From contig NC_086097.1 in NCBI RefSeq assembly GCF_963921235.1, positions 106,766,001-106,830,000 of the forward strand: a stretch of DNA of 64,000 nucleotides. The letters run 5' to 3'. Both the position numbers and the translations under genes were made by a program. Below are positions 812-55,980 of this stretch, piece after piece. Position 1 is the first letter of the stretch; each line of letters opens with the position of its first letter. The notes beneath the pieces were generated by a model. That model ran no database searches. It worked only from the letters and a program-made list of their open reading frames with translations, and had not been told where the DNA came from. Source of the stretch: Mobula hypostoma. Its lineage: Eukaryota.

Positions 812-1772
812 GCAGCAAAATAACAAAAACTACACCAACCATAAAATCATTGTGTAACAGTGTGTAAAGTACTACAAGAAAGCAGGTCATCACCTGCTCA
901 AGAATAGGAGATCATCTCCAAATGGATTTGAGATCAGGTACAAAATCTACCAGAAAGGAGTCAAGGATCAGCTGAAACTGAGCCAAAGATGAGCTAAAAC
1001 TGAGCAGATCAGCCACGAAAGAATAGTAAAGCACCAACAAAAGAATGGAATATCACAGGTGAATCAGAACACAAGCTCTGGACCAGGGAAAAATGGGAAA
1101 TCTGATGTCAACCAGGTGAACTCAGCCGCAACACTGCTGGAAACTAGACACGATACAGAATACAGGCTACAGTGGAGCATGAAACCAGCTACAAATTAGC
1201 AGGAACTCAGTTTGCGATCAGCTACAAAAGAGCAGAAAGTAGGCCAAGAAGGATATCAGGATCAGGCAGAAGAATTCATTACAAAAGTGTCAGAGAACCG
1301 CTATAGACAGTGAGAATTCTGCGAAAAAAAATGGGGATCTTAGTTGAAAAAGGAGATCAAGTAAATTAGCCAGAAAAGACTGGAAGGTTGCAGAACAACA
1401 AGCCAATAAGTTACTGAAGACTGGAGATATGCTATAAGAGAACAAGAAACCAATTGTAAAGCAGTAAGACAAACGCTAAGCCAAAGTGAGGATCCAGAAG
1501 ATCAGGCAATTAGTTTAAAACAGATCTCTGTTACGAAAGAATGAAAGTTCAAAAGAGTTCATGATCAGATACACAAGAGCAGGAAATAAGAAAGGGCAGA
1601 CAAACTACCATATAGCAGGTGATAAGCTACAAAAGAGCAATAGAGAAGTCACTAAAGCGGAGAAGATAAGCAATAGAAGAGTGGGTAATTAGCTACATCA
1701 GAGCAGGAGATAATCCATGGAAAAAGCAAGAGACAAGCTACTAATATACATGAAGTCAGGTGCTAAAGAACA

Positions 1773-2035
1773 GCATAAGACCATAAAATTCAGGAACAGA
1801 ATTAGGCCATTTGGCCCATCAAGTCTGCTCTACCATTTCTTCATGGCTGATTGATTTCCCTCTCTGCCCAATTCTCCTGCCTTTTCCCCATAATCTTTAA
1901 TGCTCTGGCTATCAAGAATCTATCAACCCCTGCCTTAAATATACCCAATGATTTGGCCTCCATAGCCACCCGTGGCAACAAATTCCATAGATTTCCCTCT
2001 CTCTGGCTAAAGAAATTCCTCCTCATCTCCATTCT
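1773..2035 (-). mobile_element. CR1 LINE 3' fragment
   Basis: ORF 1841-2032 (EMRRNFFSQR..NLWNLLP) is the CR1 ORF2 C-terminus, followed by a CR1-type 3' UTR and tail. Confidence 0.85.
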
Positions 2036-2925
2036 AATTCAAGATTCAAAAAACTTTATTGTCATTCTAACCGTACATCAGCTCTGCAGGGCAGAATGAG
2101 ACAGCGTTTCCCAGGAGCAGTGCAATCATAACATAACAAACGCAACACTAAATAATAAACATAACAATAAATAGTAAAACACAACAGCCACATGTCAGTT
2201 AAAATCAAGTTATAAGTGTCCAGTGCAAATCAAAAGTGTCCAAAAGCAGAGTCAGGTAGAGCAGTTATTTAGCAGTCTGACTGCCTGTGGGAGGAAGCTG
2301 TTTAGTAACCTTGTGGTTTTAGTTTTGATGCTCCTGTAACGTTTGCCTGATGGCAGAAGAACAAACAGTTCATGGAGAGGGTGTGAGGGGTCTTTAATGA
2401 TGTACCGTGTCTTCTGGAGGCATCAACTCTGAAAGAGGTCTTGGACAGAAGGTAGGGAGACCCCACTAACCTTCTCTGCTCCCCTAACCACCCTCTGCAA
2501 GGCTTTTTTGTCGACAGCACTGCAGCTGGAGTACCAGGTTGTGATGCAAAAGGTCAGCACACTCTCAACCACGCCTCTGTAGAATGTAGTTAAGATGTTA
2601 GTGGGGAGTGATGCTTGTTTAAGCTTCCTCAGTAAATGCAATCTCTGCTGGGCCCATTTCACAATCCCAGTGGTGTTCCTGGACCAGGTGAGATTGTCCG
2701 AGATCTGCACCCCAAGGAACTTGATGTTTTCCACTGTCTCCACTGTGGAGCCGCTGATGCTGAGGGGTGTGTGCTCAGGCTGAGACCGTCTGAAATCGAC
2801 GATCATCTCCTTGGTTTTGGTGACATTAAGCATCCAGTTGATATCAGTGCATCAGCTCTCTAGGTGTTTGACCTCCTCCCTGTACATAGTTTCAACATTT
2901 TTGCTGATGAGCCCCACCACTGTAA
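2036..2925 (-). mobile_element. Rex1/Babar-type LINE 3' fragment
   Basis: ORF 2423-2833 (LNVTKTKEMIVDFRRS...KFLGVQISDNLTWS...QQRLHLLRKLK) is an RT C-terminal region. Minus-strand AATAAA and a (TTGAATC)-type tail lie at ~2037-2062. Confidence 0.85.
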
Positions 2926-4572
2926 TGAACTGTAATGCATGATAAGCTGCATATAAGCTGCAACTAAACATAAGATCAGCTTCAATGGGACAGGAGATCG
3001 ACTCCATTAGGATGGAGAATAGCTACAAAAGGATGGGATATCATCTACCAGACAGGGAAGAAGATTAGGATAAGAGGATTCCTAGAACAGATCAGCCAAT
3101 AACCTTCAAAATAGCCTCAAAAGAAACGGTGATGAGCTACAAAGGAGCAAATGATAAACTACTAGAGAACATAATGAATGACCCATCTGCACTTTAAAGA
3201 GCAGGTGGTAAGTTTCAAACAACCGAGGCAGTGTATGCATTAGCTATAGAAAAGAGAAGTTACAATAGACAAGGAGATCTACTGCAAAAGCCAGGGATTA
3301 CAAACTGCAGGAGCAGAGCCATCACACAGCAGGGAATAAACTACAAATGTGGAGATCATCCAAAAAGAAAGGAGATAAAAGAGCAAAGGTAAGCAGTAAC
3401 AGCAGATATTGGAGAGAAAGACTAGTGATCAACTGCAAAAGAGTGGGAAAACATCAGCAGAAAATAACTGAAAAGTAGTGGAAGAGAAGCCACTAAAGAC
3501 CAGGACAACATTTACGAAAGAATAGAAAGAAAGCACCAATAGATCATAACACCTGTAATAGAGTGGAGATCCACAAAACAAAAGCAGTTAAAGCTAGAAT
3601 GCTAAAGCAGATAAGACAGAACAGTAGGAGATACTGTGCAAAAATTAAGATAACATAAATTGTGCAGGAAATAGCACAAAAGAGCAGAAGACAAGCAAAA
3701 AAAAAGAGAAATAAGGCATTACAGACAGAAGACCCAACTAGAAAGGGGCTGGAGATCATCTGCAAAACAGTGGGATAATTTCAGAAAAAGAGCAGGAGAT
3801 AACCTTCCAATTAGCTCATCGGCTACAAAACAATGCGATGTAAGCCACCAAATATGGAAAGAGGTATAAGCAACAAAGAAATGGGAGCGGGCGATCTATG
3901 GCGAAAGAGCAGGAGGTATTATGCAAAAAAAAAACAAAAGAAAAATACCTGCAAAAAAAAAGGGGCAGGAGATCAGCTACAAAAGAGCTGTTATACTATA
4001 GAACCATATACTACAGAAGTTATGCTATAAAACCAAGAGAAAGCATTAGAAAAGCTTCAAATAACAAGAAGTAAGCCACAAGGAAATACAGTGATATGGT
4101 AGAACAAAATCACCCATTAAAAATCCAATAAAAGATAAGCTATAAAATTATACTAGCTCAGTTACCAAACAGCAGTGTATAAGCTACAGAAGTGTGTGCT
4201 GAGCAACAACAGAACAAAAGAATAACTGCAGAAGAGCAGGAGGTAAGCATAGAAAGAGCAAGAGACCAGTTACAAGGGTACAGGAGGTAATAAATGGAAG
4301 AGGTGAAAAACTATAAAGCAGCGGGATTTAACTAAAGTAGAACAGATCATTTTCTATAAAACATGGATGTGAACATGGATGTGTGCAGAAGGTCATCTGC
4401 TAAAGGACAGGGGACTGGCAACATCGAAGCAGTATAGCTAACAAAAAGCTTGAGAAATCAGTGACAAATTAACATGCAATCAGCTACAGAAGTGCCACAA
4501 GTCAGCCATGTAAGAGTAGGAGAGAACTTTCCTCAGAGCAAGAGAAAATGTACTACAGAGCAGAACAGGTAA

Positions 4573-4810
4573 ATTGATAAATTAGCTTATTGTTGTCACG
4601 TGTATTGAGGTACAGCGAAAAACTTGTCTTGCATACCATTCATACAGATAAATTTATTACAGGGGTTCCCAACCTGGGGTCTACAGACCCCTTGCTTAAT
4701 GGTATTGGTCTGTGGCTTTAAAAAAAGTGGTTGGGAACCCCTGATTTATTACAATACTGCATTAGGTTGTACAAAGTAAAACAATAACAGATTGCAGAAT
4801 AAAGTATTAA
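4573..4810 (-). mobile_element. LINE 3' UTR remnant (Rex1-like), interrupted by a hAT MITE
   Basis: TTATTGTTGTCACGTGTATTGAGGTACAG layout resembles the other Rex1-type tails in the window. Confidence 0.45.
4660..4743. mobile_element. 84-bp hAT (Charlie/MER5-like) MITE
   Basis: 15-bp TIR CAGGGGTTCCCAACC / GGTTGGGAACCCCTG and a perfect 8-bp TSD ATTTATTA (4652-4659, 4744-4751). Confidence 0.92.
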
Positions 4811-4929
4811 AGAAATCAGCTCAAATAAGCAGGAGGTCAGCTACAATTCGTCTGTCAATTGCTATAAAAGCAGGTAGTTTTCTCTGACACCTGACTTCTA
4901 GTTCATCCTAAACCCATTTACAATATGAG

Positions 4930-5720: not shown

Positions 5721-5864
5721 GATGGGATTAAATTTAGTGAAAGCTTACAAAACAACACTACCAATAACTCTACAAAAATATATTAAAACCAAGCAATACC
5801 ACAAATAAGATAATACCTGTATATGCAGAATACAAATGGTATTACATAAGTTACATGAGTTTAC

Positions 5865-6150: not shown

Positions 6151-6269
6151 AGGCCTTTTGAATACAAAAATCTAATGAAAAACCTTGCTAACTACTGTAT
6201 ACTGTTATGGCTTCTGAAATCTATATCTTTATACCTTAATAAATAACCTATGTCATATCCTTGTATCTA

Positions 6270-8290: not shown

Positions 8291-8634
8291 TGGGCAGTAA
8301 GTGAAACCTGTAAGCAAGCACCTCAAAGGAATTGGTAGATCAGCCAGAAAAGAGCCTGACATCAACTATAAAAAAGCAGGAGATCAGCAAATCAACTAGA
8401 AAAGAAAGGGAAATAAAACAACAAGCAATGGGTCAGTTAGAAAAGAAAGTGAAAATATTTTCAAACGCACAAAAGATAAACTACCAAAGAAAATGAAAAA
8501 GCTATAAAACAGCAGCAAGTAAACTGTGATTGCAAGAAAAGTAAGGTCAGCTGCAGAAGATCGAGATAGTTGCTGCAAAATAGAACATAGTACAGTTCTA
8601 TCAGCCCACAATGTTGTGACAACCCTTAATATGG

Positions 8635-12831: not shown

Positions 12832-12835
12832 TGTA

Positions 12836-14685: not shown

Positions 14686-14835
14686 TATTGAGGTGATCTG
14701 CCATATATGAGGGAGATTGATGACAAAAGAGCAGGAGATCAGAGGTAAAAATAGAATAAGGTTATCTATCAAGACAAAAATAAAACTACAGAACTACATC
14801 ACTAAGTACAGAAGTCCACCAACATGTGAATAGAT

Positions 14836-17800
14836 GTTACGAAGGATCAGGCACAGCTACAGTTACAACAGATCGGAACAGCTACAGTTACAACAGATCA
14901 GGACGCAGCTACAGTTACAAAACATCAGGACACAGCTACAGTTACAACAGATCAGGGACACAGCTACAGTTACAACAGATCAGGCACAACTACAGTTACA
15001 ACAGATCAGGGACACAGCTACAGTTACAACAGATCAGGCACAGCTACAGTTACAACAGATCAGGGACACAACTACAGTTACAACAGATCAGGGACACAGT
15101 CACAGTTACAACAGATCAGGGACACAGTCACAGTTACAACTGATCAGAGACACAGCTCCACACAGTCACAGTTACAACTGATCAGGGACACAGCTCCACT
15201 TACAACTGATCAGGGACACAGCTACAGTTACAACAAATTAGGGACACAGCTACAGTTACAACAGATCAGGCACAGCTACAGTTACAACAGATCAGGGACA
15301 CAGTCACAGTTACAACAGATCAGGCACAGTCACAGTTACAACTGATCGGGGCAGAGCTACAGATACAACAGATCAGGACATAGTTACAGTAACAAAACAT
15401 CAGGACACAGCTACAGTTACAAAAGATCAGGCACAGATGCAGTTACAACTGATCAGGACAACAGCTACAGTTAAAATACTTCAGGACACAGTTACAGTTA
15501 CAAAAGATCCCGGCATAGCTACAGTTACAAAAGATCAGGACAGATCTACAATTACAATAGATCAGGACACAGCTACTGTAACAGAACATCAGAACACAGC
15601 AACAGTTACAACAGATACGGACACAGCTAGAATTACAAAAGATTAGGCACAGCTACAGTTACAACAGATCAGGGACGCAGTCACAGTTACAACAGATCAG
15701 GCACAACTACAGTTACAACAAATCAGGGACACAGCCACAGTTACAACAGATCAGGCACAACTACAGTTACAACAGATCAGGGACGCAGTCACAGTTACAA
15801 CTGATCAGGCACAACTACAGTTACAACAGATCAGGGACACAGCTACAGTTACAACAGATCAGGCACAACTACAGTTACAACAGATCAGGGCCACAGCTTC
15901 AGTTACAACAGATCAGGCACAACTACAGTTACAACAGATCAGGGACACAGCTACAGTTACAACAGATCAGGCACAACTACAGTTACAACAGATCAGGGAC
16001 ACAGCTACAGTTACAACATATCAGGCACAGCTACAGTTACAACAGATCAGGGACACAACTACAGTTACAACAGATCAGGGACACAGTCACAGTTACAACA
16101 GATCAGAGACACAGTCACAGTTACAACTGATCAGAGACACAGCTCCACACAGTCACAGTTACAACTGATCAGGGACACAGCTCCACTTACAACTGATCAG
16201 GGACGCAGCTACAGTTACAACAAATCAGGGACACAGCTACAGTTACAACAGATCAGAGACACAGTCACAGTTACAACAGATCAGGCACAGTCACAGTTAC
16301 AACTGATCAGGGCAGAGCTACAGATACAACAGATCAGGACATAGTTACAGTAACAAAACATCATGACACAGCTACAGTTACAAAAGATCAGGCACAGATG
16401 CAGTTACAACTGATCAGGACAACAGCTACAGTTAAAATACTTCAGGACACAGTTACAGTTACAAAAGATCCCGGCATAGCTACAGTTACAAAAGATCAGG
16501 ACAGATCTACAATTACAATAGATCAGGACACAGCTACTGTAACAGAACATCAGAACACAGCAACAGTTACAACAGATACGGACACAGCTACAATTACAAA
16601 AGATCAGGCACAGCTACAGTTACAACTGATCAGGAACACAGCTACAGTTACAACAGATCAGGTCACAGCTACAGTCACAACAGATATGGACACAGCTACA
16701 GTTACAAAAGATTGGAACACAGCTACAGTTAAAACAGATAGGGACACAGCTACAGTTACAACAGATACGGACACAACTACAGTTATAAAAGATCAGGGCA
16801 CAGCTACAGTTACAACAGATCTGGACAACAGCTACAGTTACAAAAGATCAAGGCACGGCTACGGTTACAACAGATCAGGACGCAGCTAGTTACAACAGAT
16901 CAGGGACACAGCTACAGTTACAAAAGATCAGGACACAGCTACATAGAAACATAGAAAATAGGTGCAGGAGTAGGCCATTCGGCCCTTCGAGCCTGCACCG
17001 TCATTCAGTATGATCATGGCTGATCATCCAACTCAGAACCTGCCTTCTCTCCATACCCCCTGATCCCTTTAGCCACAAGGGCCATATCTAACTCCCTCTT
17101 AAATATAGCCAATGAACTGGCCTCAACTGTTTCCTGTGGCAGAGAATTCCACAGATTCACCACTCTCTGTGTGAAGTTTTTCCTCATCTCGGTCCTAAAA
17201 GGCTTCCCCTTTATCCTCAAACTGTGACCCCTTATTCTGGACTTCCCCAACATCAGGAACAATCTTCCTGCATCTAGTCTGTCCAATCCTTTTAGGATTT
17301 TATACGTTTCAATAAGATCCCCCCTCAATCTTCTAAATTCCAGCGAGTATAAGCCTAGTCGATCCAGTCTTTCATCATATGAAAGTCCTGCTATCCCAGG
17401 AATCAATCTGGTGAACCTTCTTTGTACTCCCTCTATGGCAAGAATATCTTTCCTCAGATTAGGGGACCAAAACTGCACACAATACTCCAGGTGTGATCTC
17501 ACCAAGGCCTTGTACAACTGCAGTAGTACCTCCCTGCTCCTGTACTTGAATCCTCCTGCTATGAATGCCAGCATACCATTCGCCTTTTTCACCGCCTGCT
17601 GTACCTGCATGCCCACTTTCAATGACTGCTGTACAATGACACCCAGGTCTCATTGCACATCCCCCTTTCCTAATCGGCCACCATTCAGATAATAATCTGT
17701 TTTCCTGTTTTTGCCACCAAAGTGGATAAACTCACATTTATCCACATTAAATTGCATCTGCCATGAATTTACCCACTCACCTAACCTATCCAAGTCACCC

Positions 17801-18081
17801 TGTATCCTCTTAGCAATCTCCTCACAGCAATCTCCTCACAGCTAACACTCATCGTGTCATCTGCAAACTTAGAGATGCTGCACTTAATTCCCTCATTTAA
17901 GTCATTAATATATATTATAAACAACTGGGGTCCCAGCACTGAGCCTTGCGGTACCCCACTAGTCACTGCAGTTCCAACAGATCAGGGTACAGCTACAGTT
18001 ACAACAGATCAGGACAACAGGTACAGTTACCACAGATCAGGACAACAGGTACAGTTACCACAGATCAGGACAACAGGTACA
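14836..18081 (+). repeat. Young tandem array of 26-28-nt units (GTTACAACAGATCAGG[GA]CACAGCTACA), interrupted by a CR1 at 16944-17969
   Basis: Dozens of near-identical units from 14836 to 16943, with about 4 more at 17970-18081. Runs of alternating 28/26-nt units and a ~961-987-bp internal duplication are present. Confidence 0.97.
16944..17969 (-). mobile_element. Young 5'-truncated CR1
   Basis: ORF 17014-17622 (CR1 ORF2 C-terminus) and a (CATAGAAA)n tail; same subfamily as the copies at 46.3 and 62.0 kb. Confidence 0.95.
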
Positions 18082-18909
18082 ATAGTGAGGGTCTCAAGAC
18101 CTCTGACAAAAGTAGAGAAACATCTACAAGAACAGGCGATGACAAACAAAAGAGGGAGATACAAATTACAAAGTCTCATGAAATAGCTTCAAAAGAGCAA
18201 GAAGCTTGCTACAAGCTAGTGGTGACCAGTTTCCCCAGATGGCAAGATCAGCTACATAACAGCAATATCACAACTTAAAGCAGCCGCACAGCGGAACAAT
18301 ATCAGAATCAGGTTTATTATCACTGACGTACATCATGAAATTTGTTATTCTGTGGCAGCAGTGCAATACATAAAATAGACTATAAATTATAATAAGGAAT
18401 ATATATTAAAGAAGAACTGGAGATCAGACACATCAGAGCAGAGGTGAGTGAAGAAGGACTGAAGATCAGCAACAGAACAGGTGATAAGATACAAGAGATC
18501 AAATTGAAGGTTAACAACAATTAAACATGTCATTACGTACAGAAGAGCAGATCAGCTACGAAAGAACTGGAGATAAGCTATGGAGAGCAAATGTCCTGCT
18601 ACAAATCAGCAGGAGATAAGGTTAAAAAGGACAAAAGGGATTGGTTACAAATGATCACAAGATTAGCTTAAACTAAGCAATCATCTGAAAAAAATACTGA
18701 AGAGCAGTAAGTAAGATACAACAGTGTTTGAAATCTTCTGCAAAAGAGTAAGAGATCAGTTCAAATGAAGTGCATCATTCAATATTAAAAAAAGCAGATT
18801 GTCCACCAAAAATCAGGAGGATAGATAGCAACAAATAAGCAAAAGATCTGGTTCTAAAGATGTTATCTGATGGGAGAATAATCTTTAAAATTACAGGGAC
18901 TCTGCTTCA

Positions 18910-19105
18910 TAGTTCAGAGTTCAAAGTAAATTTATTATCAAAGTGCATAAAGGTCACTATACACAACCCTGAGATTCATTTTTGTGGGCATACTTAATAA
19001 ATTCATAATAGAATAATAATCATAATACAGTCAATGAAAGACCGGACCAACTTGGGCATTCAGCCAGTGTGCAAATGACAACAAACCGTGCAAGTACAAA
19101 AAGAA
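18910..19105 (-). mobile_element. Rex1-like 3' UTR remnant (a similar one lies at ~18298-18410)
   Basis: GTTCAGAGTTCAAAGTAAATTTATTATC tail layout. Confidence 0.45.
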
Positions 19106-19127
19106 GGAAAGTGCTGGGCCCGCAACT

Positions 19128-19607: not shown

Positions 19608-19654
19608 ATATACATTAATGATCTGGAAGAGGGGACCAAGTGTAGTGTATCTAA

Positions 19655-24400: not shown

Positions 24401-26030
24401 CAGTGGATCTGATCTATATGGATTTTAGTAAGGCATTTGACAAGGTTCCACACGGTAGGCTTATTCAGAAAGTCAGAAGGCATGGGATCCAGGGAAGTTT
24501 GGCCAGGTGGATTCAGAATTGGCTTGCCTGCAGAAGGCAGAGAGTTGTAGTGGAGGGAGTACATTCAGATTGGAGGATTGGCACTAGTGGTGTCTCACAA
24601 GGATCTGTTCTGGGGCCTCTACTTTTCGTGATTTTTATTAACGACCTGGATGTGGGGTTAGAGGGGTGGGTTGGCAAGTTTGCAGACAACACAAAGGTTG
24701 GTGGTGTTGTAGATCGTGTAGAGGATTGTCAAAGATTGCAGAGAGACATTGATAGGATGCAGAAGTGGGCTGAGAAGTGGCAGATGGAGTTCAACCCGGA
24801 GAAGTGTGAGGTGGTACACTTTGGAATTGACAAACTCCAAGGCAAACTACAAAGTAAATGGCAGGATACTTGGTAGTGTGGAGGAGCAGAGAGATCCGGG
24901 GGTACATGTCCACAGATGCTTGAAAGTTGCCTCACAGGCAGACAGGGTAGTTAAGAAAGCTTATGAGGTGTTAGCTTTCATAAGTCGAGGGATAGAGCTT
25001 AAGAGTCACGATGTAATGATGCACCTCTATAAAACTCTGGTTAGGCCACAAGTGGAGTACTGTGTCCAGTTCTGGTCGCCTCACTATTGGAAGGATGTGA
25101 AAGCATTGGAAAGGGTACAGAAGAGATTTACCAAGATGCTGCCTGGTTTAGCGAGTATGGATTATGATCAGAGATTAAGGGAGCTAGGGCTTTACTCTTT
25201 GGAGAGAAGTAAGATGAGAGGAGACATGATAGAGGTATACAAGATATTAAGGGGAATAGCTAGAGTGGATAGCCAGCGCCTCTTTCCCAGGGTACCACTG
25301 CTCAATACAAGAAGACCTGGTTTTAAGGTAAGGGGTGGGAAGTTCAAGGAGGATATTAGAGGAAGGTTTTTTTACTTAGAGAGTGTTTGGTGCCTGGAAT
25401 GCACTGTCTGAGTCAGTGGTGGAGGCAGATACACTCGTGAAGTTTAAGAGACGACTAGACAGGTATATGGAGGAATTTAAGGTGGGGGGTTATATGGGAA
25501 GCAGGGTTTGAGGGTCGGCACAACATTGTGGGCCGAAGGACCTGTAATGCGCTGTACTATTCTATGTTCTATGTTAACTGTTTCTGATCCAGGTGGTGTG
25601 AGTCCTGAGGCTCTTGTACCTTCTTCCTGATGGCAGCAGCATGAAGAGAGCATGACCTGTGTGGGGCTCCCTGATGATGGATACTGCTTTTCTGTAACAA
25701 TGCTTCATGTAAATGTGCTCAATGGTGGGGAGGGCTATGGACTGGACTGTATCCACTACACTTTGTAGGATTTTCTTTTCAAGGGCATTGATGTTTCCAT
25801 AACAGTTTGTGATGCAGCCCGTCAATATACTCTCCACCACACATCTATAGAAGTTTGTCAAAGTTTTAGATGTCATGCCAGATCTCCACAAACTCCTTAG
25901 GAAGTAGAGGCTCTACCATGCTTTCCGCGTCATGCACTTAAGTGTTGCATGCAGGACAGTCCTCAGAAATGATAACACCGAGGAATTTAAAGTTGACCCT
26001 CTCCACTTCTGATGAGGACTGGCTCATGGA
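21435..26030 (-). mobile_element. Rex1/Babar-type LINE split by a CR1
   Basis: AGAGCCTGATGGTTGAGGGG (~21572-21589) continues as TAACTGTTTCTGATCCAGGTGG (~25575). ORF 25574-25891 reads LTNFYRCVVESILTGCIT...LLPSGRRYKSL. Confidence 0.8.
21591..25575 (+). mobile_element. Near full-length CR1 LINE (defective): ORF1 zinc finger/coiled coil/SGNH esterase; ORF2 APE endonuclease + RT
   Basis: ORF 21607-22461 has GDSIVRG and HVGTND. ORF 22670-23659 has LNARS, ITET, YRPP, GDFN and SDH. ORF 23746-24876 is the RT (FADN). Stops and frameshifts are present; (TTCTATG)n tail. Confidence 0.96.
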
Positions 26031-26452
26031 TCTGCTACAAACACAAAACCAGGGAAAATAGCCAACGAATCAGTTTCGAGAGAATGCAAACTTAACCAAT
26101 GTAAGCTCAGGTTGAAACGAAAGTGAGGTGAGGAACCTTAAGAGATTTGCTGCAAAGGAATGGAAGATCAGTAAAAAAAAAGTGGGAGACCAATAAGAGT
26201 GATAATCAGCTACACCACAGCAAGAGATTATTACAACAGAGGACGAGATTGCTTGCAATGGAGCACAGAATATACATTAACGGAGAAAATATCTAAAAAT
26301 GTAGATGGACATCTACAAAACAGCTCAATATCGGATTCAAAAGAATCAGAGATCAGGCACAAAGAGCAACAACAAATGGAGCTGAGGCTGGCTCTTGGAG
26401 ACTGGAGATCTGAGGTGATAAGAGAAGAATTTGGATGACAGTGGTAGGTCAG

Positions 26453-29400: not shown

Positions 29401-30388
29401 AGTGCTGGGTCCATTGTTATTTGTCATCTATATCAATGATCTGGATGATAATGTGGTAAATTGGATCAGCAAGTTTGCTGATGATACAAAGATTGGAGGT
29501 GTAGTAGACAGTGAGGAAGGTTTTCAGAGCCTGCAGAGGGACTTGGACCATCTGGAAAAATGGGCTGAAAAATGGCAGATGGAGTTTAATACTGACAAGT
29601 GTGAGGTATTGCACGTTGGAAGGACAAACCAACGTAGAACATACAGGGTTAATGGTAAGGCACTGAGGAGTGCAGCGGAACAGAGGGATCTGGGAATACA
29701 GATACAAAATTCCCTAAAAGTGTCGTCACAGGTAGTTAGGATCGTAAAGAGAGGTTTTGGTACATTGGCCTTTATTAATCGAAGTACTGAGTATAAGAGC
29801 TGGAATGTTATGATGAGGTTGTATAAGGCATTGGTGAGGCCGAATCTGGAGTATTGTGTTCAGTTTTGGTCACCAAATTACAGGAAGGATATAAATAAGG
29901 TTGAAAGAGTGCAGAGAAGGTTTACAAGGATGTTGCCGGGACTTGAGAAACTCAATTACAGAGAAAGGTTGAATAGGTTAGGACTTTATTCCCTGGAGCG
30001 TAGAAGAATGAGGGGAGATTTGATAGAGGTATATAAAATTATGATGGGTATAGATAGAGTGAATGCAAGCAGGCTTTTTCCACTGAGGCAAGGGGAGAAA
30101 AAAACCAGAGGACATGGGTTAAGGGTGAGGGGGGAAAAGTTTAAAGGGAACATTAGGGGGGGCTTCTTCACACAGAGAGTGGTGGGAGTATGGAATGAGC
30201 TGCTGGACGAGGTGGTAAATGCAGGTTCTCTTCTAACATATAAGAATAAATTGGACAGATACATGGATGGGAGGTGTATGGAGGGATATGGTCCGTGTGC
30301 AGGTCAGTGGGACTAGGCAGAAAATGGTTCGGCACAGCCAAGAAGGGCCAAAGGGCCTGTTTCTGTGCTGTAGTTTCTATGGTTCTAT
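26453..30388 (+). mobile_element. Near full-length CR1 LINE (defective)
   Basis: ORF1 has CSSC...CKKC plus SGNH motifs (26454-27212). ORF2 is in pieces at 27380-27682, 27652-29088 and 29180-30316 (FADD). Putative TSD GGTCAG at 26447-26452 and 30389-30394. Confidence 0.96.
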
Positions 30389-30509
30389 GGTCAGCTACAA
30401 ATGAGCAAAGGATAAGCTCCACAAGAGTAGTTGATCAACAAGGATGAGGCAGACATCATCTCCAGTTAAGGAAGATGTAAGCTACAAAACAGCATAATAT
30501 TAGGAGATA

Positions 30510-30780
30510 ACACACAAAATATTGTTGGAACTCAGCAGGTCAGACACGTCTATGGAAATGAATAAGCAGTTGACATTTCAGGCCAAAACCCTTCTTCAGG
30601 ACTAGAAAGGAAGGGGGAAGATGCCAGAATAAAAAGGTGGAGGGAGGGTAGCTGGAAGATGATAGGTGAAGCCAGGTATGTGGGAAAGGTAAAGAACTGG
30701 AGATGAAGGAATCTGACTGGAGAGGAGAGTGGACCGTAGGAGAAAGGGAAGGAGGAGGGGACGCAGGGAAAAAGGAGGCA
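30510..30780 (-). mobile_element. Older Penelope-like terminal fragment with a decayed hammerhead
   Basis: Minus strand AGTC-CTGAAGA-AGGGTTTTGGCCT-GAAATGTCAACT at ~30567-30603, followed by the purine-rich PLE UTR. Confidence 0.7.
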
Positions 30781-31085
30781 TCAGCTGAAAATACCAAATT
30801 AGATCCACCTGGAACAGAAGTAGGAGAAACATCAAGTGAAAAACTAGAAAGATGCATAAATCAGATGAAAAGGGGAATAGATAAACCTTAAAAAAGTGGA
30901 TTAGCTGCCAAAAAGCAGGCGGGCAGCAATAAAAGACATAAGATCCTCAGAATCTACAAAAGAACTGGGGATCTGTTAGACTTGCGGGTGGCATTACCAG
31001 CCAAATTGCAGGTAAACAGCTGGAAAAATTGGAGGATAAGATACACTGGAGATCAGCAATACAAAATCAGAGAATTGCAAAATAT

Positions 31086-31765: not shown

Positions 31766-32234
31766 AAATATCTTCTTCGCTACATATTAGGTAAACCAAT
31801 AGCAATAGCGCAGCTAGAAAAGACACGAGATCACTTCCAAAAGACAGGGTTGTCAAAAATAGAGGAAAAACCTGAAAGAAAACACAGGAGATAAGCAGTA
31901 GAGGAGCAGGAAATCAACTCCTAGCAAAGGATTCAATGGCATCTGCAATGAAATGTACCACTGGTACAAAATGGTGAAGATTAGACATCAACAGAGCATG
32001 ATATCTGATAAAAATGAGTGTGAGATCAGATACAAAAAGGGAACGGTAACAAAGGAGATGAGATAAACTGCAAGATCTAAGAGGTCAACAACAAGAAGGA
32101 AGAAACAGGTAATAATCTATGTTCAAGCTGGAGCTCAGCTATGATACAGTGGCAGGTTAGAATATAGAACAGTGCAGTACATGAACAGGCTCTTTCACCC
32201 ATGATAGCTGTGCTGACTATAATGCCTAGTGCCA

Positions 32235-33095: not shown

Positions 33096-33564
33096 ATAGA
33101 TAAAGCTAATCTGTTGTCAAAAAAATGACAATAAAGAATGATAAAAGATAGGCTAAAAGTGAGCAGGGATCAGCTAAAGAAAATGGGCAGCAGAACACTT
33201 GATGGTCAGCTGGAAAACAGCAGAAAGTCAACAACCAAAAGCCAGGTGAGCAAAGTAACACAAGATCACGTATAAGACAGGAGAGAAGCTACAAAAGAGT
33301 GGAGATAAAGCTAAAAATACAGATCAGAGACAAAAGAGAGGCAGTAATCTACATCAGTGTAGGAGGTCAGCTATAATAAAACTGTAAGACATCTGCATAT
33401 GAGCAGGAGATACACAACAAAAAAACACTAGATCTGACAGAAAGGTAGGTGACATACTTGCAAAGATGTAAGGTACAAAAATAATCTACATAGAAACAAG
33501 GGCCATCAACAACAAAAGGACAGAAGATCAACTAAAATAAAGGGCAATATTAGTTACAAAAGTG

Positions 33565-33915
33565 TGGGGGATCAACCACTGATGCCCAGGAACAGAACAC
33601 ACTACAGTAAGTGGTGGACACAGTCCGATCCATCGCAGGTTAAGGCTTCCCTGCTACTAAGCACATTTACAAGAAGTACTGCCACAAAAAAACTGTATCT
33701 AACATCAAGAACCCCCACCATTCAGCCCATGCTCTCTTCTCACTGCTACCACTGTGCAGAGAGTACAAGAGCCTTATGACCCACAGCATCAAGTTTAGGA
33801 ACTGTTGTAACCATGCAACCATCAGGCTCCTGAACCACCATGGATAACTTCTCTCACCTCAACTCTGAACTACTTCCACAAGCTACAGATTCACTTCCAA
33901 GGATTCCACAACTAG
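33565..33915 (+). mobile_element. Decayed Rex1-like 3' fragment
   Basis: CATGCTCTCTTCTCACTGCTACCA...AGAGTACAAGAGCC resembles the HALFSLLPSGRRYRS region. Confidence 0.6.
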
Positions 33916-43588: not shown

Positions 43589-45124
43589 TCGATGTTGTCG
43601 TTTAAAGTTAAATTGGATAGATATATGGACAGGAAGGGAATGGAGGGTTATGGACTGAGTGCAGGTCGGTGGGACTAGGTGAGGATAGGAGTTCGGCACG
43701 GACTAGAAGGGCCGAGATAGCCTGTTTTCGTGCTGTAATTGTTATGTGGTTATATGGTTATTTAACTATTTGATATATATACACTTACTGTAATTCAGTT
43801 TGTTCTCAATTATTATTTACTGTTTACTTTGTACTATATTATTTATTATTAATTATTATTATTTATACTACAGCAATACATTGTACTACTGCCGCAACAA
43901 CAAATATCACAACATATGCTAGTGATATTAAACCTGATTTTGATTCATATGCATACTTGAATTAGAGAAGAACAAGCAGCAGCTGCTATGGAAAAGTACA
44001 GGGACCACAAAAGTACAGAAGGTCAGCATCAAATAGGTGGGAAGTCAGCTACAAAAATATGCAGATATGGGGATAGGGGAATGGGGGATATGCCTGTAAT
44101 ATCAACAGGGGTTAAGCTTCAAGAGTGTGGGGATTAGATACAGAAGCAGAGTACATCAGCCAATAAAGCAAGGGAAATGTTTGGAATATTCAAACAATAA
44201 GCTTGAAGAAAGCGTAGATAGCCTACTAAATACAAGACAACATCATCAACAGATCAGCAAGAATTACCCTAGAGGAAAGCATCAGCTACAAAAGAGCACG
44301 AAAGTCTTGAGAAAAGAACTGATATTCTCCGGAATCAAATGAACATCAGCTACAATCGAGAAGGAGATAAACAGAAAAAGATCAGGCGAACAATAACAAA
44401 AGATGGGGGGAGCACCTACAAGATAGAGATCAGACACAAAAGAGAGGAGATTGGGTAAAGAAGAATAGGGAATCAGCTGCAAAAGAGCAGAAAACTATTT
44501 AAAAATGGGCAGAACATGTGCAAAAGTGCAAAGATTCAATGACAGATGAGGAGATCAGAAGGCAGAGAGCAGTATTTCATCTACAGATGATCCAGAGGTC
44601 CGATATATTGGATCCTAACAATGGGTACAGAAAAGTAGGAAATCAGTTTTTAAAAAAAAGTCAGCCACATAATAACGAAAGACCAGCTACGAAAGACCAG
44701 GAGAGCAGCTGAAAGGCTGCACAAGATCAGGTGAAAGGATTGGAGATAGGCTGCTATTTAACAGCATTATTACTTACTTATTTTAATCTATTAGTTATAC
44801 GATTCATTCTCCTTTGCATATTGGTTGCTTGTCAGTCTTAGTCTGTGTATAGTTTTTCATAAATTCTATAAATGCCTACAAGAAAATGAATCTCAAGGTA
44901 GTGTATGGTGACATACACATACATACTTGGACAATAAATTTACTTTGAATTTTGAACAGGTAACATGATAGCAGTAGGTAACAGAGGGAGATGAGCAGCA
45001 ATAAGCTAAAAAGAGCATATCAACTGGAAAGGTGTGAAAATCACCAATGTCCAGGCTATTGGGAGAAGTGGAGATAAGTCACAAAATACTAGAGATTGCA
45101 GGCTACAGAACAGATCAAATACTA

Positions 45125-45470: not shown

Positions 45471-46345
45471 GATAACAAGAGAGCAATGAAAACAAACTCC
45501 CAGGGAAGATATGTGCCTGTGATAGCAAGTAGATTGAGTACATAGCCAGAGATCACAGCGGGGGAGCAGTCAGAGTGTCTCACTGAACTCCTGTCGAAGA
45601 GAAGATTTAAACTTTTTCAGGGCAGACATGACTCAAAGAGATTGAAGAGCCAATCATTAGCTACAAAAGAGCACAGGAACAGCTGGAAAAGGGAAGTTAT
45701 CCGCTACAAGAGAGTAGGAAACAAACTCTGAAAGAACAGAGGTACAGCTGCAAAGGATTAAAACTTCGACTACAAACAATGGAAAAACAGCTAGAGAAGC
45801 AAAGAAACTGCTCAAAGATACAGAAAATAACCAGCAAAGGAGCAGACAAAAGCTGCATAACACAGCAAAAGATCAGGCACAAATCAGTAGACAATTAACC
45901 GCTGTAGATTCAAAACACCAGCTCCATCAGAGTGGGAGCTGTGCTGTAATGGAGCATAATTTTAGAAAACAAAGAGAGCTGGAGATAACAGGAAATCACA
46001 GGAAATCATCTATTGAAGGAATGGGATATCAGCTACAAATCAATGGAAAATCAGCTATAGAATAAAATGAGATCAAGTACAAATCTCTAGGAAATATAAA
46101 ATTAGATAAAATACAACGAGAACTCAACTTCAAAGAGCAGGAGATATGTCACAAAAAAGCAAGAGTCCAGGTAAAAAATGCATGCAGATCAACTGTAAGA
46201 CAAGTCTGAGGTGTTGCAGTTCAAGAGGTTTAATGTAAGGGGAAAGTATAGAATTAATGGAGGTCCTTTAGCAGGACACCAAAACAACCAGCCGCTGGTC
46301 TCCACTCATGCTACGGTAGGAATAATACCTCTTTCTCCCTTGTTG

Positions 46346-47632: not shown

Positions 47633-48980
47633 AAAGATAGAGCCTGTGTCATGTCGAAATGCTGGGTTTTGGACTGTGGCTTTTGATGGACTCCAGGTCA
47701 CGGTCTTTTTAGGGGCTTTGCTATTGCCTGCACAGTGGGTATTGGGAGGGCTATGCTTCCAGCTGGAACAAGTGGGGCAGAGGGTTAATGCTTTGCTGCT
47801 GCTTGTGCATGGGAAGGGGGAGAGGGGGCTTTGGGGTTCTAACATTTTTCTGTAGTTCATTCTTTGAGGTTTTTCTTCTGTTTCGTGGATGTCTGTAAAG
47901 AGTAAGAATTTCAGGTTGTATACTATATACATTCTCTCATATTAAATTGAACTGTTGAAGTTTTTAACCACTGACTGATGTACAAAGCGATCTTGGGATC
48001 CCAGTCCATAACTTACTGAAAGTGGCAATTCAAGTGGTTAAAGGAAAAGAAGGCAAGTGGCATGCTAGCCTTCATTAGCCAGGGCACTGAATATAAAAGT
48101 TGGAAGTCATGTCACAGCTATATAACACTTCGGCTAGGCCACACTTGAAGTATTGTGTGCAAGTAGAAGCTACCAAATTGGCAAATTAGCTTCTACTGAG
48201 CACAGGTAAGCAAAATAATTGATTATAATTACAAAGGAGCAAGGAATCAACTACAGAATCATGGAAGTTCACTTAAACAAGGATCAAACTAAATAAAAGA
48301 GCAAGTGATTGGCTGCAAGGCATTACGAAGCTCTACTATTGATAAGTTGAACCAAGAATCTAGCATCTGCAATCTCTTGTGTCTCTCTGCTATTGAAGAC
48401 TTGGAAATTGGTTTCAAATGAATAGGAGTTCAGCAGTAAAACAGTGGCAGAGTAGCCACAAAACATTGGGAGATATAATGCAAAAACAGAGGGAGATCCG
48501 CAACAGCCACTTGTTGAGACTAGCGAAGAAAAAAAAGGAAGAGGTCAAATTCAAACGGCAGAAGATTAGGGTGAACAACTGCTGTTGGGCAGTAAGATCA
48601 ACTGCAGTGCACATCCAGATAATCCCTAAAGAACTACTAAACAAGAAATAGAATGGAACCACTGAAAGTTGAGCAATCCAGTAAATAAAAGCAGGAGAGC
48701 AACTACAAAAGATCAGGGTGATAAGATAAAAAGAGCAAGAGAACAGCCTCAAAAAAATAGTGGGTGTAAAAAAAAAATCAGGGAGACCAAAGAGGTTAGC
48801 TTCAAAAAGGCACGGACACAGTCAAATTGTGGATTTGCAAAATGGTGTATTTCAAAACTAGCTGCAATCAAAATAATTGCATCATGAATTAGGTACAAAA
48901 GAGTGGCAAATTGGTCAAGGAAAAAGCAGAAATCATCCACAAAAGAGCAGTACATGCTGCAAAAGGTAAGATGGTAAAGT

Positions 48981-51375
48981 TATTTACTAACAACCAAAGA
49001 TCCCCTTTTTTTCATTTATTCCGTGGTACTAGGCAGGGTTGCCCTCTTAGTCCATTACTATTTGATATTGCCTTGGAACCGCTAACTATTGCCATTCGTG
49101 ACTCCCCTAATATATTTGGTATTACCCGTGGAAATGAGACTCATAAATTATCACTACATGCAGATGATCTACTATTATATATTTCTAACCCAGGAAAATC
49201 TATTCCGGCAGTATTAACTTTGCTCAGTTTAGTAGCTTTTCTGGTTATAAACTGAACCTAAGTAAGAGTGAACTCTTTCCATTAAATATGCAGGTTCCTA
49301 TTTATAGAAATTCTCCATTTAGACTGATTACTGATTATTTTACTTATTTGGGAGTTAAAATTACTGAGAGACATAAGGATCTATTCAATTTCAACCTTTT
49401 ACCATTAATTAATCAGGTTAAACAACTCATTACTAAATGGTCCCCTTTGTCTCTATCATTGATTGGCCGTATTAATGCTTTTAAAATGATTATTTTACCC
49501 AAATTTTTATATTTATTTCAAGCGATACTGATTTTTATTCCTAAATCTTTTTTTGATACTATTGACTCTAAAATCTCTTCTTATATATGGCAAAATAGAA
49601 ATCCCAGATTAAGTAAAAAAAATACTTAAAGACATCTAAGAAAGAGGGTGGTTTGGCATTGCCTGTCCTAAGATTTTACTACTGGGCAATTAATATCCGA
49701 TACTTAATATTTTGGATACAAGATTGGAATATAACTCCAAGCCCACATTGGGTAAACCTTGATGGCCATTCTGTACAAGGGTTTTCTTTAGCCTCCATTT
49801 TAGGAACTTCATTGCCTTTTGCACTATCTAAATTGAATAAACAAATTTTCAACCCTATAGTTAAACATACATTGCGAATATGGTTTCAATTTAGTAAATT
49901 TTTTGGTCTGAATGAATTTATGTTATCAAGTCTTATTATATCTAATTTTTTTTTCCAACCCTCGGTAATGGACCAAGCCTTTTTGATATGGAAAACGAAA
50001 GGCGTAATATGTTTTCGTGATTTATTTTTGGATAACTGCTTTATGTCTTTTGAGCAGTTACCTGAGAAATTTGATTTGCCTAGATCCCATTTCTTTAGTT
50101 ACTTACAAATAAGAAATTTTTTTAAATACTACGTTGCCTACTTTTCCGACTTCAAATCCTTCTGGCATTCTTGATAAAATTTTAGGTTTTAATCCTTTGC
50201 AGAAGGGATTAATAGCAATAATTTATGACATAATTATGAAATTACAGCCAGATATATCTGATAAAATTAAAAGTGAATGGGAAAGGGAACTTCAACTTTC
50301 CCTACCTACAGAGAAATGGGATAATATTTTTCAATTAGTTAGTACTTCTTCTATATGTGCTAAACATACTTTAATACAATTTAAAGTAGTACATAGAGCT
50401 TATATGTCCAAAGATAAACTAGCTCGTTTTTATTCCCATATAAACCCTACTTGTCATAGATGTCACTCTGAAGTGGCTTCTTTAACTCATATGTTTTGGT
50501 CCTGTCCTCTTTTGGAAAAATATTGGAAAGATCAAATATCTGGAATGAGCTGCCAGATGAGGTGGTAAATGCGGGTTCTTTTTTAACATTTAAGAATAAA
50601 TTGGACAGATACATGGATGGAAGGTGTATGGAGGGATATGGTCCGTGTGCAGGTCAGTGGGACTAGGCAGAAAATGGTTCGGCACTGTCAAGAAGGGCCA
50701 AAAGGCCGTTTCTGTGCTGTAGTTTCTATGGTTTCTAACAGTTCTATGCTTTGATTTAAAACCCCATCCTATTACGGCAATCTTCAGATTGCCAATGGTA
50801 GAACATAGATCTTTATCTTCTTCAGCCTCTCAAATGACAGCTTTTGTTACTTTGCGAGAAGATCTATTTTGTTGAACTGGAAGGAAATTAATCCTCCAAC
50901 TACATTCCAATGGTTTTCTCAAACCATATTAAGTTTAAATTTAGAAAAAATTAGAAGTGATATTTTTGACCCTTCGGTTAAATTTGAAGATACCTGGAAA
51001 CCTTTTATGCAACGTTTTCATATGATGTAATCTGACCTTTCCGAATCTTTTTTTTTAAATTACATGCTGAGAGGAGCGGAGTTAGCGACATTATGGATCA
51101 TGTCTGATACAAGTTGTTGGTCTAGCCCTGTTTTGCCTTTTTTCGGGGTTTTTTTTCTCTTTTTCTTTTGGGGTTTTTTTTGTTTATATATATTTTTTTC
51201 TTTTTATTTCTTTGTTAATGTTTAATCTCATTATGAGTTTGGAAGTCTTTTATTTCTATGTTAGTTAAAATTCATTTTATATATGCTGATGAACATTTTT
51301 CCAATCTCTTTGTACCAACTTTGTTATTGAGTTTATAATTTTGAAAATTAATAAAAAGATTTAAAGAGAGAAAGG
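48981..51375 (+). mobile_element. 5'-truncated L1/Tx1-clade LINE (AT-rich)
   Basis: RGTRQGCPLSPLLF...LSLHADD, SLIGRINAFKM.ILPKFLY and a zinc knuckle CHRC...HMFWSC; T-rich 3' UTR with AATAAA. 13-bp TSD AAGATGGTAAAGT at 48968-48980 and 51376-51388. Confidence 0.92.
50540..50748 (+). mobile_element. CR1 3' tail fragment inside the L1
   Basis: Nearly identical to the 30190-30388 CR1 end. Confidence 0.88.
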
Positions 51376-52089
51376 AAGATGGTAAAGTCAATGAGAAAAG
51401 AGAGAAATGGTCAACTATATAATAGTATGAAATCAACTACAAAAGAATGGCAGGTCTGCTACACTATTGTTTAGGTCAACTTCAAAAGAATTGGAGATAC
51501 GTTGCAAGAGTGAAAATGAGTTGCCAAAGAGGAGGGGATCCTCTTAAAAGAAGGGAAAATGATCTCCAGTAAAGTAGCTAGATGAGTTACAAGCCAGTGA
51601 CAGCAGGATTTCAAACTCCATGGGGCTCAAAACAATCAAGCTAAAGAACAGTTGACATGACGGGACCCTTGTTCCAGAAGAGGAGGAGACCAGCCTCATA
51701 AGAATTGAGAGATCAGCTATGAATGAGCAGGATAGTGGCATTAAAAAATAAACTGTTGTGGAAGAGCAAGAGATGTTCACGGAAATTCCAACAAGTCTGC
51801 TAGGGAAATCGAAGGCCCAATATCTGTGAGTCCGAGTCCACTGGAGGGTGGACGCCCAGAGGCAGCCTGTCCTGGGTTTGGAGACCTGTGTGTGAGTGGG
51901 TGGGTGGGCAGGAGGGAGGAAAGTGCTTGATTTACAGCTGCTGTTTTGTCGCTGTTGTGGTCCTTTATGTTGCTCTGCTGAACATTGTGGGCATGCTACA
52001 TTGGCACTGAAATGTGTAGCAACACTTGTGGGCTGCCTCCAGATCATCCTTAAGTTATGTTAGTTGTTAATGCATATGCATATAGTAGG

Positions 52090-53450: not shown

Positions 53451-53584
53451 TGTGGTCCCCTTTCTATACAAAAGAATAAGAGATGAGCTCAAAAGAATGG
53501 GAGATTAGTTTTTAAAAAAGTGGGATACACGCCACTAAAGAGGGAGAAAATCTCTAATAGTGAAAAACACTGTTAAAAAGGTAA

Positions 53585-53828
53585 GAGAACATAAGACTAT
53601 ATGATATAGGAGCGGAATTAGGCAGTTTGACCCATTGAGTCTGCTCTGTCATTTCATCATGGCTCATATATTTCTCTCTCAGCCCCAATCTCCTACCTTC
53701 TTTCAGTATCCCTTCATGCCCTTACGAATGAAGAACCTATAGCCCTCTACCTTAAATATACCCAATGACTTAACCCCCATAGCCACCTGTGGCAATTAAT
53801 TCCACAGATTCACCACTATCTGGCTAAG
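53585..53828 (-). mobile_element. CR1 3' fragment
   Basis: Same 3' UTR as the 1773 and 6270 copies. Confidence 0.8.
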
Positions 53829-54439
53829 AGATAAGCTACCCAAAAGAGGGGAGTCAGCAGAAAAGCCTTGCAGGTGAAAAAGATTGAGAAAGCAACCATA
53901 AAAGGTCAGGGAGATCCACTGTTAAATATCATGGAGAACTGCTTCCAAAGAGCAGAGCTTCAGTTGAAAGGAGTGGGGAGATGAGCCACAAGTGAGGGGG
54001 AGATGAGTGTCAATGAGCCTTGTGATTAGCTGCATTAAGATTGTGATGCCAGTTACAAAATAATTGTGACTGTGGAGTGGAAGATCAGCTATGAAAAAAT
54101 CAATTATAAAAGAACTAGGATAATAATTTCAAAAACACAGGGAAAAAAATATCAGTATTGGAAGTCAGGAAAGTAATTGGCTGGTACGTATGTATTGTAG
54201 TTTTTTTCTGTCTCTACCTTCCAGTGGTTTGCTCTATAAATAAAGTTAATACCTTAAAGCCAGTTTATTGTTTAGTTCTAATTGTATGAAACATCAGCAG
54301 AACCAATTAAAAAGTTTAATTATAGATCAAATACATTAAGCTTTGATGGAAGTCCAAGAGCAGTTATATCCAGTGATCGTGGCATATGGATACTGGCAGA
54401 TACCATTGTGATTCACGTGGCCTCATCTTCAGTAATTGG

Positions 54440-55950: not shown

Positions 55951-55980
55951 AGGACCTGAAAACTAGGAGGAGACTCCTCA

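What the first reader, a model, noticed from the sequence alone, without database searches (positions are those of the whole stretch)
812..54180. The 'unique' DNA between TEs over ~53 kb is one ancient, strand-consistent ~22-nt tandem repeat
Seen: once TEs are removed, the remaining blocks are purine-rich on + and repeatedly show variants of GGAGATCAGCTACAAAAGAGCA. The blocks include 812-1770, 2926-4570, 8290-8580, 18410-18900, 26030-26450, 30390-31080, 31770-32160, 33095-33560, 43950-44750, 45640-46200, 48165-48980, 51390-51780 and 53825-54180. Near-perfect copies occur at 1216, 1621, 3965, 44281 and 45657, and 22-nt steps at 4234/4256/4278 and 18550/18572. I saw no inverted copy. Inference: a single array of more than 10 kb and hundreds of units predates the TE insertions and has been inflated several-fold by them. 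A period of 22 is not a multiple of 3, so this is not a coding repeat. I do not recognise it as a described satellite, and it is probably too diverged for default repeat finders.
Basis: partly seen in the sequence, partly recalled or inferred. Interest (0 to 1): 0.82.

Follow-up and report, generated by a model that had tools for sequence, protein, structure and literature searches.

The report
Fossil 22-base satellite split by transposons
About 410-450 worn copies of one 22-base unit lie in a single orientation, in 21 pieces between jumping genes across 53 kb of this fish genome; they are likely the remains of a once-uniform repeat array that stopped being maintained very long ago, and one worn unit likely re-expanded later into a new 27-base repeat.

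Summary
An unsupervised model finds the same 22-mer from 4 of 4 random starts; lag-22 autocorrelation z=13.7; 118 matches on +, 1 on -. The old array holds 9.1 kb in 21 pieces, 806-54156, about 0.47 substitutions per site from consensus. Neighbouring units share no more variants than random pairs; AGCT is not kept preferentially. Its first kilobase is single-copy and collinear in 4 of 4 other organisms laid (1.8-6.5% different); 11 of 19 polarised recent changes lead away from consensus. Best reading: a dead satellite/minisatellite, a known kind. Additions: the 27-mer array at 14845-16943 aligns to the old unit (0 of 1000 shuffles as good), likely a rebirth in place; base 812 is a mobile-element edge, not the array's end. 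Unexplained: old decay is transversion-rich (ts/tv 1.0) against about 2.2 today, and a constant clock would make the array 14-15 times older than the deepest split seen, which echoes a proposed hypermutable phase of freshly dead satellites. The scan noted a similar 32-base dead array elsewhere in this genome (e1-9829717); this repeat was not found on other DNA.

The parts
812..1801 (+). old 22-mer array, piece 1 (about 45 units); single-copy and collinear in organisms B, C, D, F
2937..4568 (+). old 22-mer array, longest piece (about 74 units)
8320..8586 (+). old array piece
14690..14844 (+). old array piece directly before the young 27-mer array
14845..16943 (+). young 26-28-nt tandem array (79 unit slots, 92% identical to its own consensus, with an internal duplication of about 0.6 kb at about 1 kb spacing); its unit matches the old consensus at 16 of 22 positions plus a 5-nt insertion
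16944..17968 (-). retrotransposon 3' fragment that splits the young array in register (CR1-type by my reading of the translation)
17969..18081 (+). tail of the young array (27-28-nt units)
18082..18910 (+). old array piece
26029..26452 (+). old array piece (HMM to 26376; read to the insertion edge)
26453..30388 (+). near full-length non-LTR retrotransposon inserted within one unit, 6-nt direct repeat at its ends
   Evidence: endonuclease domains in 27637-29088
30389..30536 (+). old array piece
30773..31082 (+). old array piece
31791..32178 (+). old array piece
33119..33609 (+). old array piece
43963..44758 (+). old array piece
45645..46202 (+). old array piece
48166..48978 (+). old array piece (two HMM segments with a 33-base gap)
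48981..51388 (+). non-LTR retrotransposon fragment (zf-RVT domain) with a 13-nt target-site duplication made of array sequence
51405..51777 (+). old array piece
53825..54156 (+). last old array piece; no periodicity in 54157-57196, so probably the true right end
1..811 (.). high-copy mobile-element sequence (contig depth in the hundreds to tens of thousands against 4-14 in the array) that ends at 811/812 and hides the array's left end

Best explanation
These are about 410-450 degenerate copies of one non-coding 22-base unit, all on one strand and split by retrotransposons, likely a dead satellite/minisatellite: a once nearly uniform array of at least 9 kb that likely stopped being homogenised at about one time and has since decayed unit by unit. 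Steps. (1) Shown: one unit, one orientation, equal decay in all pieces. (2) Inferred: the array was amplified fast to near-uniformity, because neighbouring units share no more variants than random pairs. (3) Inferred: homogenisation stopped, and point changes (about 0.47 per site), small indels and CpG decay built up independently in each unit. (4) Shown at a few junctions, inferred for the rest: mobile elements inserted into it and spread it over 53 kb. (5) Inferred: one decayed unit with a 5-6-base internal duplication re-expanded in place by slippage or unequal exchange into the 2-kb 27-mer array, which was then itself split by a retrotransposon. (6) Shown for the first kilobase: the sequence is single-copy, collinear in four other organisms and still drifting from the consensus. 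No present function is needed. Part of the decay possibly came in an early, transversion-rich burst (untested beyond simulations).
For: Same consensus from 4 of 4 unsupervised starts. Identity homogeneous over 21 pieces, chi2 15.8, df 20, no gradient. Shared variants between adjacent units 0.134 against 0.133 in permutations. Mismatches per gap-free unit (n=212): mean 7.5, variance 4.2 against 4.8 for independent sites. No array-to-array BLAST hit at E<1e-6. Retention follows base identity, not position: A 0.65-0.78, T 0.72, C 0.54-0.65, G 0.57-0.63. Intact AGCT occurs 1.02 times as often as independent decay predicts. CA columns show excess TG and a lack of CG (34 against 11.7 expected and 6 against 31.0 at columns 21-22), the mark of methyl-CpG decay. 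Single-copy orthologous contigs in B, C, D and F. Of 19 changes placed on the window's lineage, 11 lead away from consensus, 5 towards it, 3 neither. Indels up to 19 bases between species. Young unit against old consensus: score 165 against 73+-21, 0 of 1000 shuffles as high. No Pfam family at E<=0.001 in 30 of 30 frames of five non-array stretches.
Against: No neutral reference stretch was compared across species, so weak constraint is not excluded; the direction test used only the 35 array rows among the 40 shown of 121 and cannot tell neutrality from two-fold constraint. A constant clock makes the array 14-15 times older than the split from D and F. The accumulated changes have ts/tv 1.02 (bootstrap 0.89-1.18), while recent changes are 24:11 and simulations at 2.2 return 1.3-1.95: simple uniform decay at today's spectrum does not fit. 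Slight structure remains: variant sharing at two units' distance 0.149 against 0.132+-0.007 (1 of 200 permutations; one of four lags tested) and column 21 differs left and right (p=0.002, one of 22 columns). One RNA-type contig of organism A covers 806-1088 without a difference, at depth 4.4.
Confidence: 0.8

Rival explanations
1. The array is the repeat domain of a long non-coding or intronic RNA under weak selection. On the minus strand the consensus reads like a minimal 3' splice site (CTGAT, a pyrimidine run, TAG), so it could bind splicing factors as a decoy array.
For: The minus-strand unit has that order of motifs (read from the consensus; the splice-site consensus is recalled). The array is old and kept in four other organisms. 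One RNA-type contig covers 806-1088.
Against: The columns that would be the branch point and the AG are kept no better than other columns of the same base. More than 40 kb of insertions were tolerated. 11 of 19 recent changes lead away from consensus. No exon was recognised.
Confidence: 0.08
2. It is an immunoglobulin-switch-like AID target: a purine-rich strand with an AGCT and an AGCA motif every 22 bases.
For: The consensus has two WGCW motifs 11 bases apart; AGCT 9.8 per kb against 3.5 per kb in the rest of the window.
Against: AGCT is not retained preferentially (ratio 1.02). No Ig domain in the frames scanned. The array is single-copy, whereas shark Ig genes lie in several to hundreds of clusters and are stated to lack switch regions (PMC4279169, passages).
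Confidence: 0.03
3. The units were never uniform: the array was made or diversified by an error-prone process, so that most of the variation is original and the array is far younger than a clock suggests.
For: Transversion-rich spectrum and the age problem. The young daughter array also has transversion-rich variants, 74 transitions to 83 transversions counted over units, with several two-base changes. A model with half of the change in a burst at ts/tv 0.5 fits the estimate (1.07, 1.01, 0.97).
Against: A uniform ts/tv of about 1.0-1.2 in the past fits as well. CpG decay marks show long ordinary germline change. Adjacent mismatches are only 1.10 times expectation, within the simulations' 1.00-1.11. 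The young array's counts include copies of the same event.
Confidence: 0.09

Closest known systems
Dead (monomeric) alpha-satellite layers beside primate centromeres (Shepelev et al. 2009, PMC2729386; passages read)
   Same: Once homogeneous tandem arrays that stopped being homogenised, diverged and collected retrotransposons; divergence within the array larger than the age suggests (2-3-fold there), for which the authors propose a hypermutable phase by error-prone synthesis.
   Different: Unit 22 nt rather than 171 nt (recalled); far more decayed (66% identity to consensus, against 71-85% between monomers); transposons make up about four fifths of the span; single-copy locus with no active relative known; no link to a centromere shown.
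The 32-base dead array noted elsewhere in this genome (e1-9829717; an unreviewed AI note)
   Same: Worn copies of one short unit in pieces between transposons over about 60 kb.
   Different: Other unit and other genome piece; about 160 copies there; I could not see its sequence.
Micro- and minisatellite life cycle: death by interruption, rare rebirth (recalled; PMC4102424 seen only as a search listing and abstract start)
   Same: An interrupted repeat stops expanding and decays; a variant can seed a new run.
   Different: Here the scale is 9 kb, and parent and daughter arrays lie nested at one locus.
Immunoglobulin switch regions of tetrapods (features recalled; sharks stated to lack them in PMC4279169, passages)
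   Same: Degenerate, strand-asymmetric repeats rich in AGCT/WGCW.
   Different: No Ig gene seen, motif not preferentially kept, broken by 40 kb of insertions.

Membership tests
Dead (non-homogenised) satellite array | Head-to-tail units of one length in one orientation | tested here: met
Dead (non-homogenised) satellite array | Homogenisation has stopped: units diverge independently, no recent internal duplications | tested here: met
   exception: the nested young 27-mer array
Dead (non-homogenised) satellite array | Transposons have accumulated inside the array | tested here: met
Dead (non-homogenised) satellite array | Present-day change at the normal rate of surrounding DNA | tested here: inconclusive
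   direction of change fits drift, but no single-copy neutral flank was in the stretch laid
Dead centromeric layer in the sense of Shepelev 2009 | Lies beside an active or former centromere, with related layers on other chromosomes | not testable with these tools
   no genome is held for this window
Dead centromeric layer in the sense of Shepelev 2009 | Divergence within the array exceeds independent dating (hypermutable phase) | tested here: inconclusive
   14-15 times the deepest split seen and a low ts/tv, but no independent date for the array
Ig switch region | Lies before an Ig constant-region gene | tested here: not met
   no Ig domain in five non-array stretches scanned in six frames (12.8 kb), none recognised among 132 ORFs of 90 aa or more; DNA outside the window not seen
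Ig switch region | AGCT/WGCW motifs dense and preferentially kept | tested here: not met
   enriched 2.8-fold over the rest of the window but retained at 1.02 times chance
Repeat-domain lncRNA (Xist/Rsx-like, recalled) | A discrete transcript spans the repeats | tested here: inconclusive
   contigs cannot show strand or level; one 283-nt contig at depth 4.4
Coding tandem repeat | Period a multiple of three with an open frame | tested here: not met
   period 22; the young units are 26, 27 and 28 nt and shift frame

The most novel reading that the evidence does not exclude
The locus is a fossil record of a mutational burst: about half of the decay was laid down early by a transversion-rich, error-prone process acting on the near-perfect array, as proposed for freshly dead primate satellites, and the nested young 27-mer array shows the same process at work now. 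Slowly evolving ray genomes, with several such fossil arrays, would then let that hypothesis be tested by spectrum and by date. The other way out is also notable: recognisable neutral repeat DNA some 300 million years old.
Probability: 0.3. Interest if true: 0.6.

Novelty: new member of a known kind. Interest (0 to 1): 0.35.

Why it matters
As a dead satellite it is an ordinary process seen at an unusual depth. It matters in three modest ways. DNA that repeat finders call 'unique' in ray genomes can be fossil tandem repeat (TRF sees about 150 of 9,091 bases at period 22). A star-shaped set of about 400 copies of one known ancestor is a ready-made meter of long-term neutral substitution spectra in cartilaginous fish. 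And it holds a parent array and a daughter array nested at one place. If the low ts/tv is particular to arrays, it would support an early error-prone phase in dead satellites, an idea proposed in 2009 from rates in the passages I read.

Tried and rejected
No whole genome is held, so no genome-wide scan for other copies or neighbouring genes was possible. Run search: no RNA holder listed; this is no evidence on expression. In the four RNA-type runs laid on 1-4900, the bins 1149-1640 and 2953-3772 had no cover; contigs show presence only, so this is not used. Cover at 3773-4100 in run X17 came from pieces too short to be listed and lies on an A-rich stretch; not used. I first took 2-384 for a processed pseudogene and meant to use it as a clock; DNA depth showed a high-copy element and Pfam gave nothing above its cut-offs in 7 of 7 readings, so I dropped it. 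An automatic search for target duplications at all 20 gaps gave one clear case (13 nt); my hand-set junctions in that call were off by a few bases in places, so those alignments are illustrations, not a statistic. No Rfam match. An idealised six-unit array folds no better than shuffled units on either strand. No exact consensus match in metagenome contigs or viral contigs. No look-alike in earlier findings for 1-6400, 14845-15400 or 2937-4568. Literature: searches gave no description of this repeat among the 20, 20, 15 and 1 papers listed; four motif strings were found in 0 papers. The library lacks most subscription journals, and repeat libraries (Dfam, Repbase) could not be searched. Subfamilies, a higher-order repeat and a gradient along the array were tested and not found beyond the weak hints given in the Against line.
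Full report
Observation. The quoted 22-mer matches at 7 or fewer mismatches 118 times on + and once on - in the whole window. Within the 13 blocks (8,280 bases) there are 30 matches at 5 or fewer mismatches against a mean of 0.08 in 200 dinucleotide shuffles, and the autocorrelation peaks at lag 22 (z=13.7), 44 (7.8) and 11 (5.9) against 100 shuffles. A cyclic 22-state HMM trained without the motif reached the same consensus from 4 of 4 random starts. A two-strand scan of the window gave 21 segments on + between 806 and 54156 and one doubtful 42-base segment on -. Without the young 27-mer arrays the old array holds 9,091 bases, which is 413 units by length and 453 unit slots by alignment. The near-perfect copies lie 3-5 bases from the stated places, and the 22-nt steps are there. 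TRF at score 30 reports period 22 at two short places only.

Surroundings. The DNA between the pieces is mostly non-LTR retrotransposon: reverse transcriptase, endonuclease, zf-RVT and GIY-YIG domains were found in 6 of 10 ORFs that I picked for a Pfam check; two more had other hits and two had none. The labels CR1, L1 and Penelope are my reading of the translations, from memory. No Pfam family was found in 30 of 30 frames of five non-array stretches, 12.8 kb in all, and no Rfam family in the window. The element at 48981-51388 is flanked by a 13-nt duplication of array sequence. The element at 26453-30388 has a 6-nt direct repeat at its ends that falls inside one unit (read). Most other gaps are nested and gave no clear duplication. 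On the right, 54157-57196 shows no periodicity (z=0.1), so 54156 is probably the true end. On the left, 1-811 is a high-copy element that ends at 811/812; a contig of organism D aligns from 813 with 147 unlike letters before it. I infer that the element is absent there and that the array may go on beyond the window.

How the units differ. Identity to the consensus is 0.675 over 8,839 aligned bases and the same in all 21 pieces (chi2 15.8, df 20). Adjacent units share variants no more than permuted units (0.134 against 0.133). By my estimate a single shared variant per unit at the time of freezing would have raised this by about 0.06, so the array was nearly uniform. Mismatches in 212 gap-free units are spread as for independent sites, and no piece is a recent copy of another. 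Retention depends on the base (A and T 0.65-0.78, C and G 0.54-0.65), not on the column. Intact AGCT is found 1.02 times as often as chance predicts (157 clean units). The strongest link between columns is CA to TG with a lack of CG, as expected from methyl-CpG decay. The distance from consensus is 0.467 substitutions per site (bootstrap 0.44-0.49). Weak leftovers of structure exist: sharing at two units' distance 0.149 against 0.132+-0.007, and a left-right difference at column 21; each is one of several tests.

Other species. Runs labelled as nine organisms hold words of 1-1790. I laid four DNA-type or unlabelled runs on 1-1785. In 4 of 4 the array is covered by one contig at a time at depth 3-14, with 18 differences in 1,023 bases (B), 43 in 1,003 (C), 51 in 865 (D) and 53 in 819 (F), and with indels of 1-19 bases. 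The table showed 40 of 121 difference rows, chosen by support; 35 lie in the array. Of 19 that parsimony places on the window's lineage, 11 lead away from the consensus, 5 towards it and 3 neither; over the 34 aligned rows 8 involve no consensus letter, near my hand estimate of 20% for drift. This fits neutral decay but cannot exclude two-fold constraint, and no neutral flank was in the stretch.

The daughter array. 14845-16943 is a 26-28-nt repeat, 92% identical to its own consensus over 79 unit slots, on the same strand and between two pieces of the old array. Its unit matches the old consensus at 16 of 22 positions with a 5-nt insertion; the score is 165 against 73+-21, and 0 of 1000 shuffled units reach it. 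Six mismatches is close to the 7.5 of an average worn unit, so I infer that a worn unit re-expanded late. A retrotransposon fragment splits it in register at 16944-17968. Whether this 27-mer occurs elsewhere in the genome could not be checked.

What does not fit. The accumulated changes have a transition/transversion ratio of 1.02 (0.89-1.18). Recent changes in the array are 24:11 (ratio 2.2; one-sided p=0.024 against 1.02; the interval reaches down to 1.03), and 36:16, 47:21, 61:28 and 58:25 per run over the whole stretch laid, element included. Simulated decay at 2.2, put through the same alignment and estimator, returns 1.7-1.95, or 1.3-1.5 with more indels or uneven rates; a uniform ratio near 1.0-1.2, or half the change in a transversion-rich burst, fits. 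The young array's variants are 74 transitions to 83 transversions counted over units, though copies of one event are counted many times. Also, the distance from consensus is 14-15 times the per-lineage distance to D and F, 21 times that to C and 52 times that to B. Earlier notes call this genome a devil ray (e1-7791569; not tested), and a preprint gives about 20 million years for the split of two mobulids (10.64898/2026.10.27.761883, passages). If the deepest split laid here were of that order, which I do not know, a constant clock would give about 300 million years. Low rates in sharks (PMC10587355, abstract start and passages) make great age plausible for recognisable DNA but push the date further back. 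Shepelev et al. found dead alpha-satellite layers 2-3 times more diverged than their age allows and proposed error-prone synthesis in freshly abandoned arrays (PMC2729386, passages; the word 'transversion' does not occur in its main text; I did not read its supplement Text S1, which may bear on this). Changes towards A on + also exceed their mirror changes towards T (G>A 0.24 against C>T 0.19; T>A 0.15 against A>T 0.11; C>A 0.135 against G>T 0.10), which I leave unexplained.

Rivals. A functional RNA repeat is suggested by the minus-strand unit, which reads like a branch point, pyrimidine run and AG, and by one 283-base RNA-type contig at 806-1088 with no difference and depth 4.4 (it may be DNA). 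But those columns are not kept better than others. A switch-like region is suggested by AGCT at 9.8 per kb against 3.5 elsewhere, but the motif is not preferentially kept, the locus is single-copy, no Ig domain was found, and shark Ig loci are stated to lack switch regions (PMC4279169, passages). A coding repeat is excluded by the period.

Novelty and verdict. The kind is known: a dead satellite invaded by transposons. I did not find this repeat in print (searches; open-access library only), in metagenome or viral contigs or in earlier findings. The scan noted a 32-base array of the same kind elsewhere in this genome (e1-9829717), which suggests such fossils recur here. What this locus adds is the depth of decay, cross-species collinearity, a nested daughter array and a spectrum anomaly that can be tested. 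New member of a known kind; interest 0.35. The most novel open reading, an early error-prone burst recorded in the array, has probability 0.3 and would deserve 0.6.

Noticed in passing
window 1-811: High-copy element with no Pfam match; related species hold internally deleted versions (joints from about 158 to 385-463) and a shorter form 614-811 with a 16-nt imperfect inverted repeat near 598-613/759-774; well covered in RNA-type runs. Possibly a non-autonomous DNA transposon; unclassified.
   Followed up: partly
window 14845-16943: The young array has three zones: alternating 26/28-nt dimers, a more varied block, and a near-identical copy of that block about 1 kb further on (602 matches, 6 transitions, 3 transversions). 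Many variants are two-base changes.
   Followed up: partly
window 1596-1614 and 1677: Organisms D and F lack 19 bases between two short direct repeats of neighbouring units, and both stop aligning at 1677 with about 30 unlike letters beyond: a shared deletion or insertion.
   Followed up: no
unit column 7 across the array: C>A is unusually common (59 of 179 units left of 20 kb, 44 of 222 right of it); it may be an ancestral second unit type.
   Followed up: partly
window 57629-58741 (-): 370-aa open frame with a GIY-YIG domain, a Penelope-type element by my reading; its end sequence recurs at about 12960-13070, 13590-13830, 42995-43590 and 52170-52360, inserted in other elements.
   Followed up: no
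window 46343-47632 and 62031-63326: Two young retrotransposon copies, 96.8% identical, in opposite orientation 15 kb apart.
   Followed up: no
window 7020-7654: A-rich stretch next to an array piece with lag-22 z=1.7; may be more decayed array or unrelated.
   Followed up: partly
chromosome context: Earlier notes lie up to 99.7 Mb before and 35.8 Mb beyond the window on the same piece, so the array is interstitial on a large chromosome; a preprint says large mobulid chromosomes arose by fusions. A link to a fusion point is untested.
   Followed up: no
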